A stretch of 64,000 nt of DNA, from the NCBI RefSeq assembly GCF_053078305.1, contig NZ_CP166879.1. One strand, given 5' to 3'. Made by a program: the position numbers. Below, one piece after another: positions 8,732 through 17,700 of this stretch (positions are counted from its first letter, which is position 1; every line of letters begins with the position of its first letter).

Positions 8732-11700
8732 AATCGGTGCAAATGCCAGATAAGACACTAACGCGTCTTATCTGGCCTACAGGTGATTAGTCTTTATCTG
8801 CCGGACTTAAGGTCACAGAAGAGAGATAATTCAGCAGGGCGATATCGTTCTCGACACCCAGCTTCATCATCGCAGATTTCTTCTGGCTACTGATGGTTTT
8901 AATACTGCGGTTCAGCTTTTTAGCGATCTCGGTCACCAGGAAGCCTTCCGCAAACAGGCGCAGAACTTCACTCTCTTTTGGCGAGAGACGCTTGTCACCG
9001 TAACCACCAGCACTGATTTTTTCCAACAGGCGAGAAACGCTTTCCGGGGTAAATTTCTTCCCTTTCTGCAGCGCGGCGAGAGCTTTCGGCAGATCGGTCG
9101 GTGCACCTTGTTTCAGCACGATCCCTTCGATATCCAGATCCAATACCGCACTAAGAATCGCCGGGTTGTTGTTCATGGTCAGAACAATGATCGACAGGCT
9201 TGGGAAATGGCGCTTGATGTACTTGATTAAGGTAATGCCATCGCCGTACTTATCGCCAGGCATGGAGAGATCGGTAATCAACACATGCGCATCCAGTTTC
9301 GGCAGGTTGTTGATCAGTGCTGTAGAGTCTTCAAATTCGCCGACAACATTCACCCACTCAATTTGCTCAAGTGATTTGCGAATACCGAACAAGACTATCG
9401 GATGGTCATCGGCAATAATTACGTTCATATTGTTCATGTACTTGCACCTATGTATTAACTATTTGATTTTAAAAATATATTCTATGCTTTGTTTAGTCGT
9501 TGGGGCACCTGTGGGACATAAGTACATAGCTTTCTGTTTAGTACTTCTACCTGGGACTGGTTATTGTCTTTCATCCATGCACCGTAAACATTGTAAACCA
9601 TCTGGGCATTCGCATGTCCCATCTGGTTGGCTATGAAGTTTGGATTTGCTCCGGCAGTTAAAGCCCAGCAAGCATAAGTATGCCGAGACTGATACGCTTT
9701 TCTATGGCGAATTTTTGCTCGTTTTAATGCAGATTCCCATGTTCTGTTGATGGATGTTACGGCATAATGAACTCCTGAGTTACCTGTGCGATCTAATATC
9801 TGAGGATTGAAAACAAAGCTGCATGAGTGAGTGCTTGTCCGGCCATACTCTCGCAGCTTTACTTCTATCTGATATTGTTTACCAAGCCTGGTTAATGTCG
9901 CCTGATTTTTTAATACGTCAATTGCTGGCTGTATGAGTTGTATTACCCTGTTTGTTCCTGCATCTGTTTTGGGTAGTGTAAATTCCTTTGTCTGAGTGTA
10001 ATTCCTTTTGACGGTCAAGGTACCCGCTTCCAGATCGATATCCTCCCATGCTAGCCCACACAGTTCGCCATGCCGCATCCCGGTATATACAGCCAGCGAC
10101 CAGAAATTTTTAGTTTGCTGGTGGTGGCACGCATCAATCAGTCTGGCAAACTCATCTTTTGTTAGTGGATCGGGAGGTGTTTTCGCTCTTTTCAGTGATG
10201 GAAGCTCACTGAAAGGGTTTTTGCCTATATACCCATTGTTTGCCGCAAAACGGAACATCCCGGAGATAATTGTCATATAGCTATTTACAGTAGGTACACT
10301 ACGACCTTTAATAGGCTTCCTCTGATTTTTTCCTGGCAACTGATATCCCGTTAATAATTCTTTACGAAAAATGAGAACATCTTCCTGTGTAATTGATGAT
10401 GCCAGTTTGTTCCCTCCAAGGCAGTCAAGGCAATTTCGGATAGCTGATTTGTATCTGACCATGGCATTTGCTGTTATTTCCATTTTCTTAAGCTCAAGCC
10501 ATTTTTCCGAAAGTGCCTTAATGGTTATCTCTTTTTTTCCCAGACCAAAATGTTTCAGGTTAGGGGAATTAGGGAACTGCGCGGCGTAGTCGAAGCTCCC
10601 CATTCTTATTGCAAAACAAACGGAAGTGCGAAGTTCACCTGCGATCTTCCGGTTTTTGGCGGTGTCAGGAACACCGAGGTTTTCTCTGACACGTTTGCCG
10701 TTATAGTGAAACCATATGCGGAGTGATCCTCCATGGTTTTCAACGCCTGTCGGGTATGATGCGTTACTCATTAAACCTCCCAGACGTCCAGGAGCATTAA
10801 CAGGTTAACCGGAACTTGCATTTTTGGCACCTGGTTGTTTCTGGTTTTCGATCCAGCGCATAATTTCCTCAATGTTGTATACACATTCACTGAAAGGCCC
10901 GGGCTCTCCTTCTGCTGCGTAATGACGGTATTCTTTCCCCAGTAACCAGGATTTTTTTCTTGCTCTGGCAATGGTTCCTGATTTCAGTCCAGTTGCAGCA
11001 ATAAGGGTTCTTTCTGTGCACCATTTGCTGGGCGTTATCTGATAGATGATTGTTTCCATTCCTGACTCACACTATCTTCAGGCCACGGCAGTGGCACCAC
11101 ACGTCAAACATTCGCTTTACAACTTCACGGCAGTAGAAGCCGTGAGCATCTCTGGTTAAATCGTATCGGTACCCGTATCTGAGTCGTATCCATATTTCAA
11201 ACTCGCGATTCACGACTTATTCTCCTGCTGTCTTTATGCCAGTTCATCCGGTTGCGCTGGGGCCCAGGCCTTCCGTGGCCTGTATTTGCGGCGTTTTCTG
11301 GCTTCAATGCGTATCTTTGTCACCCTGACTGGCTTTGGTTCGTGCCGGAACACTTTGTTTCTGATATTACGCCGTGTATTCATCATCCAGATAAAACGCT
11401 GGGTATGGTCGCATCCGTCATCAACGGTAATTACTGTGCGGACCAGTTCATCGTTAATATCAACCATTTCACCCATTCACTGAGCCCTCATACGCGAATT
11501 TCGTGGCTTCCATCAGTTGCGTCCATACCCATTCAAGAAATTGTGCGTTTTCTCCTGAGCGGTCATATTCATCGACGCTGCGGGGCTTGATGGTCGCCAG
11601 TAGTGGCACAATCCGGTACTTCATCTGTTCGGTTAACTTGTCCGGTACAAGTCGCCAGCCGTTATATTTCGATGGAACATGGTGGTATTCAGCCAGGAAG

Positions 11701-14700: not shown

Positions 14701-17700
14701 AAAATGAGCGAGATGTATGATGGCCGTTTTTCGCGTGAAGCATTTCTTAACTTGTCCGTGGCGGCAGACTCTGTAAACAGGGCCGCAATCGAGTTCGTAT
14801 TTATGAAAAGCACGGTCGATTCCGGCATTATTTATTGCACTGTATTCCGTATCACTGAAGAAAGGTGGAAATACGATGTATCCTTCCATTGTCAGCGCCA
14901 GAACGCGCGGATCGGTTTCTGTCAGCCATTCGTTTTCTGTGAATTCTTCAGAATTAATTTCAATGATTTCAGGTTCTTCTTTCATGGTTACTCCGTGTTC
15001 ATCCGGTGTTAATTACTTTTATTCACTCTGAGCGCAGCCAGAAGATGTGGCTCAGCAATTCGTTTGTTGCGATATATCTGTGATACAGCCTGGCCTTTTC
15101 AGGTTGTAAAAATCCCCGACAATAAAGCTGTAAATTAATTACTGTTCTTAAATAATGTTATTCGTTTTCAGTCCGGCACAGATGCTTTTCTGCTTTGTCT
15201 GCTGTACAGGATAATGAGCGGAAAAGACAATTCATCATGTTTAGCGCATCTGGTGAACCAATATCACCGCTGTCAATAATCACCTGTAACAAAGACAGGC
15301 TTTCTGTTATCTCGCAGTGGACATTATCGAGTACTTCAACGCAATTATTCATTTTTCATTATCTCCGTTATTCCGGGGGAGGAGCTATGCTGTTAATGAT
15401 TAACGCATCTGGTAATATGCCCCTCTTTAATGTAATCGATGCATTCATTCAAAAGTTCATCAATGATTAACTTTCCTGATTCAGTCAGATACTCACCATG
15501 TTGGTTGATACCGACAGCATCCTGGTATGCAGTGCGTATTGCTGTTTCACCATCTTTCCGCCCAAACTCACCACGGGTAACGCCTTCAAATCGTAATAGC
15601 AACTGGTTTATGAACTGTTCTGTTATTTCAATAGTTGTTAACTCTCCATCATGACGCTTTACAGTGAGGAGATTACTTCCTGTTTTTCGTTTCATCCGCC
15701 GCAGTGCTGCAACCGTTATGCGGCGACGATATGCAGAAATGTATTTATCTTTCATTTGTTATTTCCCGTATGCCTTTTTGAGAAACAATACTGCAACTGA
15801 CCAGTATCCGGCATCAGCCATTAATAAAGCGGTTTTATAGGCATGTTTGTCTTTCATGTGTCATCCCCATTTTTAAATAGTGAGAATTCACGACCGCAGA
15901 CCGTCATGTTTTTATGTATGATTGTCTGTTTAATTTCCTTTATTCGTTCTCAGAGCATCAACATACTCGTAAGCCTTTTCACAGGTTTTATTCATGGAAC
16001 GAATCAGACAAAGTAAGAAATCATCTGTCTCTCCGTTATCACCAGAGTTTTTAAATATAAACTCAAGCATTGACGTGTTTTCTTTTATTTCTGCTGCCAC
16101 TTCCTCAAGCATAATCAGGGGAGTTTTCATGTTCTTTGTTCCTTAAATGCATCGCATGCGCTTCTGGCGTATTGTTGTGCCAGTAAAAAGATGTCATCCG
16201 AAAGTTCATCACATTCTTCATCACCGGAAGCCGAAATGATTAACCCCGCTTCAAGCAGTACTGCAATGTGATGAAAAGCTGTTTCCGGTTCGTTGGTGAG
16301 GCCTTTGAACATTTTCATCTTACGATTCCTTTGTAGTGTCAGAATGGAAACCTGTAAGTAACCACATCGGATCGCAGTCAAGTATATTTGCCAGAGGAAT
16401 CACCTGGCTTGCCAGAGGTTCAGCCTTGCCGTTCTCCCACTGGATGATGGTTTCTTCATCAACTCCAAGCAGCGTGGCGAGTTCAGCGGTGGATAGACCG
16501 CAGCTTTCGCGTTGGGTGCGGATCTCATGGGGGCAATCAGAAATGTTTTGTTTATGAATTAACAAAGATAATGTGTGAGATACTTTGTTTATTATATCCC
16601 ACGCCATTCCGGCGCATGACTCGATATCATTGGCAAGAGTTGTATCTGGCGCTGCTTTTGCGATAAGAGCAATGAGGGAGCCAAGATTTTTTAAATCTTC
16701 AATGCATGATAGCGTAGTTTTTTGGAACATATTAATGATACCTCAGTTACTTTTTTAGTATGGTAACTAAAGTATCATTCATGGGCAAGCGTTTTTTGAT
16801 ACTAAAGTATCTTTCTTAGAAAATATCCCATCGGGCATCCACGATCACGCCGACGATTTCACAATCATCATCTATTTCAATGATGGGATACTGAGGATTG
16901 AGTGGTTTCAGGAAAGATCTTCCCATTTCAGTCACATATTTTTTGAATGTTGCTTCGTTGGTTGATTTTTTTCTTGCGATAACGTAACAGCCTGAATGTA
17001 CAGCTTTGTCTGGGTTTACGAGAATAGACATACCCTCAGGAAAGGTGATTCCAACAGGCGAGGTCATTGAATCACCATGTACTTCAAGCCAAAAACCTCT
17101 TTCACCTGCATATTTGACAGAATGTCTCCAGTTATCATGGTCATACATGCTGTAATCATCTCCAGCAGTAGAGAATAGTCCGGCCTGGACCCAGTTAATA
17201 ACGGGATAGGAATGAAATGCGTCTTTTTGAGGACAACTCTTAACATTGTTTTCCCAGTTTACAGATTGTTCTTCTCCATTTTGTAGCCATTGTGGAGTGC
17301 AGTTTAGGGCTGTGGCTACCTTGAATAAAGTATCTCCGTTGAAGCTTTTAGTAAGTCCTTGCTCTGCTTTGCTTATAGCCACGCGGGTTATACCGGCTTT
17401 TTTTGCTAATGCATCTTGTGTCAATCCTGCCCGTTGCCTGGCGCTGCTAAGGCGCTCTCCCAAAGTTCTCATTTTATCTCTCCTGTTTTTTCGGTCGATA
17501 CTAAAGTAGCACATATTCTTGATACTTTAGATTCATTTGTTGTACATTTATGGACGCTAAAGTATCAATCAGTGAGTGAGAGATGACTCTTTACGAAATT
17601 TTAAAAGCTGAGTTTAAAACCAATGCTGCAATTGGTCGCCGTTTCCCTAAGAGAGGAAAACCTAGAGGTAGTCAGGGCGTTGGAAAGTGGAAAACCCGAG

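What the first reader, a model, noticed from the sequence alone, without database searches (positions are those of the whole stretch)
11234..14985. Leftward early block lacks recognisable recombination genes and consists mostly of unrecognised ORFs
Between xis and the repressor region, where lambdoid phages usually carry exo/bet/gam-type recombination and kil/cIII functions, this prophage has ORFs of 80, 300, about 135, 289 (BRO-N/ORF6N-like), about 195 and 186 aa that I cannot assign by eye. Accessory and anti-defence genes commonly accumulate in this region; the Cys/His-rich 186-aa protein and the 300-aa protein are candidates for uncharacterised functions.
Basis: inference. Interest (0 to 1): 0.3.

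Follow-up and report, generated by a model that had tools for sequence, protein, structure and literature searches.

The report
Prophage early-left accessory genes, no recombinase
This is the repressor-controlled left-hand early operon of an E. coli lambdoid prophage: it lacks the usual recombination genes and instead carries seven small, exchangeable accessory genes, mostly of unknown function, which is an ordinary mosaic arrangement also seen in phages such as Fels-1 and phiP27.

Summary
Window 11234-14985 carries seven tightly packed minus-strand genes, not six. A 74-aa gene at 12368-12592 was missed.

No exo, bet/RecT, gam, kil, cIII, NinB or NinG homologue was detected anywhere in the 64-kb window. 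A sibling prophage at the same rcsB site shares int, xis, p48, p80 and the 300-aa gene. It then carries exonuclease, RecT, GamL, a cell-division inhibitor and NinG. So this is a module swap, with the junction in the first codons of the 300-aa gene.

What the genes are:
- **300-aa protein:** its first 45 residues match lambda Ea22; the rest is an E. coli orphan.
- **288-aa protein:** a common Ant-type ORF6N/KilAC "anti-repressor".
- **120-aa protein:** DUF5406.
- **194-aa and 186-aa proteins:** they belong to PHROG families of unknown function. Both give confident AlphaFold models with no PDB relative by fold (the 194-aa model also has none in BFVD).
- **Cys/His of the 186-aa protein:** not conserved in its family, so no metal site is supported.

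Six copies of a 14-bp palindrome flank the cI-like repressor gene, which places the block in the pL operon. Fels-1, phiP27 and Klebsiella phages share this recombinase-free layout.

Verdict: an ordinary mosaic accessory region of low interest.

The parts
11234..11476 (-). p80: 80-aa basic protein (pI 10.6) of unknown function
   Evidence: ORF and RefSeq CDS WP_000504369.1. It gives only a weak hit to phrog_4183 (E 1e-6). It is found only in near-identical prophages. It is unrelated to the DUF4222 protein that sits at the same position in other prophages.
11469..12371 (-). p300: Ead/Ea22-like chimera, with an Ea22-type N-terminus (residues 1-45) fused to an orphan region of about 250 aa
   Evidence: Residues 1-45 are 40% identical to lambda Ea22 residues 1-45 (E 6e-9; tblastn). 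Pfam Ead_Ea22 scores 14.5 bits, below the 27-bit cut-off. A 98% identical sibling protein scores 25.5 bits and NCBI names it ead/Ea22-like. It matches phrog_24401 over its full length. Only two relatives turned up in the 5.8-billion-protein search.
   Evidence: RefSeq CDS WP_000587146.1. It matches phrog_1001 at E 1e-30. Homologues occur in 28 related loci at 41-67% identity. dN/dS is 0.26. A profile search found no PDB relative.
12609..12971 (-). DUF5406 protein: 120 aa, very acidic (pI 4.05)
   Evidence: Pfam DUF5406 scores 69 bits against a 25-bit cut-off. It matches phrog_3409 at E 3e-45. dN/dS is 0.13. A profile search found no PDB relative.
12964..13830 (-). Ant-type protein: N-terminal ORF6N domain plus a weak C-terminal KilAC match, 288 aa
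   Evidence: Pfam ORF6N scores 80.5 bits against a 27.8-bit cut-off. ANT/KilAC scores 16.2 bits, below its 25.3-bit cut-off. phrog_63 'anti-repressor Ant' matches residues 11-284 at E 1.6e-39. Relatives occur in 457 phage records, with full-length relatives at 69-73% identity in Cronobacter phage ENT39118 and Escherichia phages SaltyDalty and Fostie. dN/dS is 0.14.
13854..14438 (-). p194: 194-aa acidic protein (phrog_1515) with a confidently predicted alpha/beta fold that has no known relative
14425..14985 (-). p186: 186-aa protein (phrog_1886) with an acidic disordered N-terminus (1-54) and a basic core (55-175)
16731..16811 (-). Putative oL/pL: three copies of the 14-bp palindrome GATACTTTAGTATC between cI and the first leftward gene
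   Evidence: The sequence was read and the repeat families are (D1, I4, I19). The pattern search found 7 of its 8 window matches (5 distinct sites) in the two intergenic regions that flank cI. The third oL copy, at 16737-16750, is more degenerate and was seen only by eye and as repeat I4.
17497..17566 (+). Putative oR: three copies of the same palindrome between cI and the rightward cro-like gene
16816..17472 (-). cI-like LexA-family repressor that would keep the block silent in the lysogen
   Evidence: RefSeq names it a LexA family protein. It matches phrog_4 transcriptional repressor at E 3e-51.
15158..16730 (-). Promoter-proximal part of the same operon: p64, p120, p66, p63 and a 136-aa HTH protein. 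It lies outside the finding but between it and the repressor.
   Evidence: p64 and p66 are paralogues (both phrog_6882).
9482..11213 (-). Distal end of the operon: p48, excisionase (DUF1233) and tyrosine integrase, next to rcsB

Best explanation
The block is the distal half of the leftward early (pL) operon of a 933W-like lambdoid prophage inserted between rcsB and rcsD.

**How it is controlled.** In the lysogen, a cI-like LexA-family repressor would bind three 14-bp palindromic operators on each side of its own gene and keep the operon off. After induction, transcription would run leftward from about 16.8 kb through 12 small genes into xis and int. Control by repressor and the direction of transcription are inferred from the layout, not measured.

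**What the seven genes are.** They are exchangeable accessory cassettes, equivalent to lambda's exo-xis/b-region genes, and not core functions:
- an Ea22-like protein, whose lambda and Stx-phage namesakes bias the lysis-lysogeny decision towards lysogeny;
- an Ant-type ORF6N/KilAC protein, probably DNA- or repressor-binding;
- five proteins of unknown function (p80, p74, acidic DUF5406, acidic p194, and p186 with a basic core).

**How cassettes move.** They are swapped between phages by recombination at short conserved junctions. One junction is visible in the first codons of the Ea22-like gene.

**Recombination.** No phage recombinase, RecBCD inhibitor or Kil/CIII homologue was detected. By inference the phage depends on host recombination functions.
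For: **Anatomy**
- Seven co-oriented genes are separated by -14 to +23 nt.
- The operator palindrome GATACTTTAGTATC gives 5 distinct pattern-search sites, at 16763-16811 and 17497-17566, on either side of cI. That is 7 of the 8 window matches, against 3.0 expected over the whole 64 kb (sequences). A sixth, more degenerate copy at 16737-16750 was seen by eye.

**No recombination genes**
- Searches found none.

**Module swap**
- The JNEC-KY176 prophage at the same rcsB site is 99.7% identical up to window position 12350.
- It then carries a second Ea22-like gene, a PAPS reductase, YfdQ, lambda exonuclease, RecT, GamL, a cell-division inhibitor, AntA/B and NinG.
- Other breakpoints fall at about 12625 and 12740.
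- In OkiPb01692, p74, p300 and p80 are absent. In ECCNB12-2, p194 and p186 are replaced.

**Same recombinase-free layout elsewhere**
- Fels-1, phiP27 and KPP5665-2 have it.
- So do 80 IMG/VR loci, which shuffle the same cassette types: p186, p194, SPFH, Rha/ORF6N, p74 and DUF5406.

**Gene identities and selection**
- Ea22 similarity. Ea22 biology: PMC7093339 and PMC10834534.
- The Ant-type family is widespread.
- Purifying selection: dN/dS 0.13-0.26.
Against: - No transcription data were available. The sigma-70 promoter and terminator scan found no more sites than in shuffled sequence, so pL is inferred from the operators only.
- No N-type antiterminator was recognised.
- 'Accessory' is argued from mosaicism and patchy distribution. 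However, p194 is conserved across many Stx, phiP27-type and Klebsiella phages, which could mean a more important role.
- Five of the seven proteins have no functional handle at all.
- The functions of the Ea22-like and Ant-type proteins are taken from family names and were not tested.
Confidence: 0.7

Rival explanations
1. One or more of the orphans (acidic DUF5406, acidic p194, p186) is an anti-defence or host-takeover protein. An example would be a protein or DNA mimic that blocks a host nuclease or restriction system. In that case the block would be a counter-defence island rather than a set of lysis-lysogeny modulators.
For: - This part of lambdoid genomes holds ral and gam in lambda and GamL in the sibling prophage.
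- DUF5406 has pI 4.05 (21 D/E against 5 K/R) and p194 has pI 4.6. Small acidic phage proteins are often inhibitors; this rests on general knowledge, not a test.
- The phage has no recognisable Gam, yet it would still meet RecBCD.
- The p194 and p186 folds have no known relative (for p194).
Against: - No homology to any known anti-defence protein was found, and PADLOC gave nothing for these proteins. Neither result is strong, because no anti-defence library was available.
- Acidity alone is weak evidence.
- The p186 core is basic, not mimic-like.
Confidence: 0.2
2. The adjacent, translationally coupled pair p186-p194 is an unrecognised recombination module, for instance a new single-strand annealing protein with a partner. 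It would replace exo/RecT functionally.
For: - The pair is adjacent with a 14-nt overlap.
- p186 lies just upstream of p194 in all 29 Klebsiella/Salmonella-type loci, in some separated by a 1.1-kb insertion.
- The pair lies in an early-left operon that holds no known recombinase.
- Both models contain a three-strand-plus-helix unit, the core motif of Rad52-type annealing proteins.
Against: - Profile searches of PDB, which holds Red-beta, RecT, Rad52 and Sak, found nothing at E of 1 or below.
- p194 occurs without p186 in all 46 phiP27/E. coli-type loci, and p186 occurs without p194 in Fels-1.
- A 1.1-kb insertion separates the two genes in some Klebsiella phages.
- No nuclease motif was found.
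Confidence: 0.06
3. The block is decaying, non-functional prophage DNA whose ORFs persist by chance.
For: - The prophage lacks several common lambdoid functions.
- IS elements interrupt this region in some sibling genomes.
- p80 and most of p300 have no diverged relatives with which to test selection.
Against: - All seven ORFs are intact and tightly packed.
- dN/dS is 0.13-0.26 where it can be measured.
- Protein-level conservation extends across genera.
- Two AlphaFold models are confident.
- The prophage retains replication, Q, lysis, capsid and tail genes.
Confidence: 0.03

Closest known systems
Lambda exo-xis region (ea8.5, ea22, orf61, orf63, orf60a) and the equivalent region of Stx phages
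   Same: - It has the same position, between xis and the rest of the pL operon, and the same orientation.
- It is likewise made of small early genes that are dispensable and poorly understood.
- p300 shares the Ea22 N-terminal 45 residues.
- Published work shows Ea22 favours lysogeny and that its C-terminus is highly variable (PMC7093339, PMC10834534).
   Different: - None of the other lambda exo-xis genes has a homologue here.
- The p300 C-terminal part is unrelated to the solved lambda Ea22 C-terminal domain (no PDB hit).
- Here there is no exo gene to bound the region.
Early-left regions of Salmonella phage Fels-1, Stx2e phage phiP27 and Klebsiella phage KPP5665-2
   Same: - The layout is the same: int, xis, small unknown genes, LexA-type repressor, cro-like gene, then a DEAD/DEAH helicase. 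None has exo, bet or gam.
- They share cassettes: p48, p74, DUF5406, ORF6N/Rha, p194, p186 and p120.
   Different: - Identity is only 31-86% at protein level.
- The order and the set of cassettes differ between phages.
- p80 and the p300 body occur only in this prophage's close relatives.
- The late region here is 933W-like.
Sibling prophage at the rcsB site in E. coli JNEC-KY176 (NZ_AP045172.1)
   Same: - The integrase, excisionase, p48, p80 and p300 are near-identical and the attachment site is the same.
- It has the same type of helicase/primase replication module and a Q antiterminator.
   Different: Beyond window position 12350 it carries a canonical recombination and host-control module: lambda exonuclease, RecT, GamL, a cell-division inhibitor and NinG. 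All of these are absent from the window.
Ant-type phage anti-repressors (ORF6N or Bro-N/KilA-N domain plus KilAC, e.g. phrog_63)
   Same: The 288-aa protein matches over its full length (E 1.6e-39) and carries a Pfam ORF6N domain above threshold.
   Different: - The KilAC match is below Pfam's threshold.
- The gene sits inside the repressed pL operon. That position does not suit a trigger of this prophage's own induction. A role acting on other prophages or on DNA is my inference.

Membership tests
Lambda Red-type recombination module (exo / bet or RecT / gam) | A lambda-exonuclease (YqaJ) family nuclease gene | tested here: not met
   No Pfam, PHROG or NCBIfam match in the block or the rest of the early region. 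A tblastn of lambda exo and the sibling exonuclease against the 64-kb window gave no hit below E 0.5.
Lambda Red-type recombination module (exo / bet or RecT / gam) | A single-strand annealing protein (Red-beta/RecT, ERF, Sak or Sak4 type) | tested here: not met
Lambda Red-type recombination module (exo / bet or RecT / gam) | A RecBCD inhibitor (Gam or GamL) | tested here: not met
   Lambda gam and the sibling GamL gave no tblastn hit below E 1 in the window, and there was no family match.
Ead/Ea22-like protein (Pfam PF13935), tested on p300 | Pfam model match at or above the gathering score | tested here: not met
   14.5 bits against a 27-bit cut-off, E 0.053. A 98% identical sibling protein scores 25.5 bits, and NCBI nevertheless names it ead/Ea22-like.
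Ead/Ea22-like protein (Pfam PF13935), tested on p300 | Conserved N-terminal segment shared with lambda Ea22 | tested here: met
   Residues 1-45 align with lambda Ea22 residues 1-45 at 40% identity, E 6e-9 pairwise. The tblastn E-value is 3e-6.
Ead/Ea22-like protein (Pfam PF13935), tested on p300 | Lambda-type C-terminal domain (solved by NMR) | tested here: not met
   No alignment beyond residue 45. There was no PDB sequence hit to Ea22. The published work states that C-termini differ between Ea22 homologues (PMC10834534).
Ead/Ea22-like protein (Pfam PF13935), tested on p300 | Pro-lysogenic effect on phage development | not testable with these tools
   This needs deletion and lysogenisation assays like those in PMC7093339.
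Ant-type anti-repressor (ORF6N/Bro-N plus KilAC), tested on the 288-aa protein | N-terminal ORF6N domain | tested here: met
   Pfam ORF6N scores 80.5 bits against a 27.8-bit cut-off, over residues 17-103.
Ant-type anti-repressor (ORF6N/Bro-N plus KilAC), tested on the 288-aa protein | C-terminal KilAC (ANT) domain | tested here: inconclusive
   Pfam ANT scores 16.2 bits against a 25.3-bit cut-off. However, phrog_63 'anti-repressor Ant' aligns over residues 11-284 at E 1.6e-39.
Ant-type anti-repressor (ORF6N/Bro-N plus KilAC), tested on the 288-aa protein | Binds and inactivates a phage repressor | not testable with these tools
   The family name comes from annotation only.
DUF5406 (Pfam PF17400), tested on the 120-aa protein | Pfam model match at or above the gathering score | tested here: met
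   69 bits against a 25-bit cut-off, covering the full model, positions 1-116.
Cys/His metal-binding (zinc-finger-like) protein, tested on p186 | A conserved set of Cys/His ligands across the family | tested here: not met
   In the 29-sequence alignment only H76, A88, F101, G127 and the initiator Met are 90% or more conserved. C67, C74, C150, C169 and C185 vary. C82 is invariant only among the five closest homologues.
Lambdoid repressor-controlled early-left (pL) operon | Repeated operators on both sides of a cI-type repressor gene, with divergent early genes | tested here: met
   The 14-bp palindrome occurs at 16763-16776, 16798-16811, 17497-17510, 17521-17534 and 17553-17566, plus a degenerate copy at 16737-16750. 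The LexA-family repressor lies at 16816-17472.
Lambdoid repressor-controlled early-left (pL) operon | N-type antiterminator as first pL gene | tested here: not met
   Lambda N found no homologue. The first leftward gene is a 136-aa HTH protein. Other N families were not tested.

The most novel reading that the evidence does not exclude
p194 is conserved in the early-left operon of phiP27, many Stx1/Stx2 phages and Klebsiella phages, and has a confident fold with no PDB or BFVD relative. p194, its frequent neighbour p186, or both could be a new kind of host-directed protein that lets recombinase-free, Gam-free lambdoid phages cope with RecBCD or another host defence. That would make them a functional substitute for the missing Red/Gam module, or a new anti-defence family.
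Probability: 0.15. Interest if true: 0.55.

Novelty: new member of a known kind. Interest (0 to 1): 0.2.

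Why it matters
It matters little as it stands. The result documents one more mosaic variant of a lambdoid early-left accessory region and corrects a few gene calls.

Three modest points come out of it:
- A clean natural comparison exists. Two prophages at the same rcsB site share int through the Ea22-like gene, and one has and one lacks exo/RecT/GamL/Kil/NinG. This pair could be used to ask what a lambdoid phage loses without its own recombination system.
- p194 and p186 are conserved early proteins with confident predicted structures and no known fold relative. 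p194 is common in Stx phages. That makes them reasonable targets for structural or functional work on Stx-phage biology.
- The swap junction inside the Ea22 N-terminal codons illustrates how that conserved segment may serve as a recombination linker between cassettes.

Tried and rejected
**Sequence and family searches**
- Sequence searches of PDB with single proteins and with family profiles for p186, p194, p300, DUF5406, p74 and ORF6N all came back empty at E of 0.1 or below.
- NCBIfam found nothing for any of the seven proteins. PADLOC gave only weak PDC-S05 matches to the ORF6N protein.
- The indexed search of 5.8 billion proteins returned only 2-4 relatives each for p186, p194 and p300, which was too few to extend the families.
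- The exhaustive representative search showed the p186 family is small, with 39 clusters.

**Structure searches**
- Foldseek against BFVD for p194 gave nothing at E of 0.001 or below.
- The AlphaFold-database library was not available.

**Other tests**
- Internal repeats in p194, and similarity between the p186 core and p194 segments, were tested with hhalign. There were none.
- p80 was compared with the DUF4222 protein that occupies the same slot in other prophages. They are unrelated.
- The 'mRNA interferase' annotated next to a Klebsiella p186 homologue was considered as a toxin partner. It is a 40-aa ORF with a doubtful label, so the idea was dropped.

**Literature**
- Searches for DUF5406, the PHROG numbers and the RefSeq protein accessions found no papers.
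- A search for rcsB as a published prophage integration site found only unrelated mentions.

- Both structure-prediction jobs went to p194 and p186, so p300, DUF5406, p74 and p80 were not modelled.

Full report
**Setting.** The window is E. coli chromosome. It carries rcsC (5738-8587, +) and rcsB (8787-9437, -). A prophage follows, whose integrase gene (9482-10771, -) ends 45 bp from the rcsB start. In a 99.5% identical copy in strain DETEC-S792, the prophage lies between rcsB and rcsD. That copy has a 933W-like late region: Q antiterminator, a sialate esterase, holin and lysozyme, an N4-gp56-type capsid protein, and tail fibres. The window shows the same features, plus a 2807-aa polyvalent protein.

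**The observation.** NCBI's annotation of the near-identical copy calls seven genes:

| Gene | Coordinates |
|---|---|
| p80 | 11234-11476 |
| p300 | 11469-12371 |
| DUF5406, 120 aa | 12609-12971 |
| ORF6N protein, 288 aa | 12964-13830 |
| p194 | 13854-14438 |
| p186 | 14425-14985 |

Neighbouring genes overlap by up to 14 nt or are at most 23 nt apart. Where diverged copies exist, dN/dS is 0.13 for DUF5406, 0.14 for ORF6N and 0.26 for p74. p194 and p186 have intact homologues at 32-45% identity in phages of Klebsiella, Salmonella and other hosts. These are real genes. Only p80 and the body of p300 lack diverged relatives.

**Absence of recombination genes.** Pfam, PHROG, NCBIfam and PADLOC scans of the block and of the rest of the early region found no exonuclease, annealing protein, Gam, Kil, CIII, NinB or NinG. 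I then ran a tblastn against the whole window with two query sets. One was lambda exo, bet, gam, kil, cIII, N, NinB, NinG and the exo-xis genes. The other was the exonuclease, RecT, GamL, cell-division inhibitor and NinG of a sibling prophage. The only real hit was the lambda Ea22 N-terminus on p300.

**The sibling prophage.** In strain JNEC-KY176, a prophage at the same rcsB site is 99.7% identical from rcsB through int, xis, p48, p80 and p300, up to window position 12350. Beyond that it carries a second Ea22-like gene, a PAPS reductase, YfdQ, lambda exonuclease, RecT, GamL, a cell-division inhibitor and AntA/B. Further right it has a helicase/primase pair, NinG, NinH and Q. So the window prophage differs by a module swap, and the left junction lies in the first codons of the Ea22-like gene. 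Further breakpoints near 12625 and 12740 appear in other genomes. In OkiPb01692, p74, p300 and p80 are missing. In ECCNB12-2, p194 and p186 are replaced by other small genes. At DNA level the block is rare: 33 of 5426 complete E. coli genomes have any match, and 7 hold at least 80% of it.

**A shared layout.** Fels-1, phiP27 and Klebsiella phage KPP5665-2 have the same arrangement: int, xis, small unknown genes, LexA-type repressor, cro-like gene, DEAD/DEAH helicase. None has exo, bet or gam. Eighty IMG/VR loci recovered with the p194 family share subsets of p48, p74, DUF5406, ORF6N, p186, p120, p66 and the HTH protein. The slot next to p194 or p186 holds an ORF6N protein here and in Fels-1, a Rha-family protein in KPP5665-2, and an SPFH protein in phiP27. 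The same kinds of cassette are therefore dealt out in different orders.

**Control.** The palindrome GATACTTTAGTATC, or a close variant, occurs at 16763-16776, 16798-16811, 17497-17510, 17521-17534 and 17553-17566. A sixth, more degenerate copy lies at 16737-16750. That makes three copies on each side of the cI-like gene at 16816-17472. Seven of the eight window matches fall in these two short intergenic regions, against about three matches expected over the whole 64 kb. This is the classic oL/oR arrangement. It places the leftward promoter just upstream of the 136-aa HTH gene, so the block would be transcribed only after the repressor is lost. A simple promoter and terminator scan added nothing above chance. 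No N homologue was found.

**The individual proteins.**
- **p300.** Its first 45 residues are 40% identical to lambda Ea22 residues 1-45 (E 6e-9). The rest matches nothing except a 90% identical E. coli cluster and, weakly, phrog_5117. Ea22 favours lysogeny in lambda and Stx phages, and its C-terminus is known to vary (PMC7093339, PMC10834534).
- **The 288-aa protein.** It has a Pfam ORF6N domain above threshold and a sub-threshold KilAC match. It aligns end to end with PHROG "anti-repressor Ant" families. Relatives occur in 457 phage records.
- **DUF5406.** It is very acidic, with pI 4.05.

**Conclusion.** The finding is correct as a description and ordinary in kind. It is the mosaic accessory part of a repressor-controlled early-left operon, of a type already represented by Fels-1 and phiP27, in which no phage recombination system is encoded. 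The most interesting leftovers are p194 and p186. Both are conserved early proteins with confident predicted folds and no known structural relatives, and p194 is common in Stx phages.

Noticed in passing
window 23285-24128 (within ORF 23276-26176, +): There are 120.6 perfect tandem copies of the 7-bp unit GACCAGC. Read in frame they give a (DQRPATS)n N-terminal extension of a 966-aa ORF. Residues 318-965 of that ORF are a phage N6 DNA methyltransferase, and a type I specificity-subunit gene follows at 26251-27360. In the sibling prophage the methylase CDS is 653 aa. Because 7 is not a multiple of 3, gain or loss of a single unit would shift the reading frame, so this may be a phase-variable repeat.
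   Followed up: partly
window 15158-15352 and 15930-16130 (both -): Two small acidic genes in the same operon, p64 and p66, are paralogues. Both match phrog_6882. The stretches of about 170 bp upstream of each also share repeats (families D4 and D6).
   Followed up: no
window 9437-9482; locus L002: The prophage is inserted between rcsB and rcsD, and the integrase stop codon lies 45 bp from the rcsB start codon. This separates rcsB from rcsD and might affect Rcs phosphorelay expression.
   Followed up: no
L086/L088 (E. coli JNEC-KY176, NZ_AP045172.1 1853178-1872000): A sibling prophage at the same site shares int through the Ea22-like gene. It then carries exo, RecT, GamL, a cell-division inhibitor, a HicAB pair and NinG. 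The switch point is at window position 12350, inside the conserved Ea22 N-terminal codons.
   Followed up: yes
window 16737-16811 and 17497-17566: Six copies of a 14-bp palindrome (consensus GATACTTTAGTATC) flank the cI-like gene, three on each side. They are probably the oL and oR operators of this immunity type.
   Followed up: partly
window 53943-62366 (+): A 2807-aa ORF carries LPD38, LPD5, LPD1 and MuF-C domains, making it a large polyvalent protein. In the sibling DETEC-S792 prophage, the end nearest rcsD instead carries YadA-like and S6 peptidase genes.
   Followed up: no
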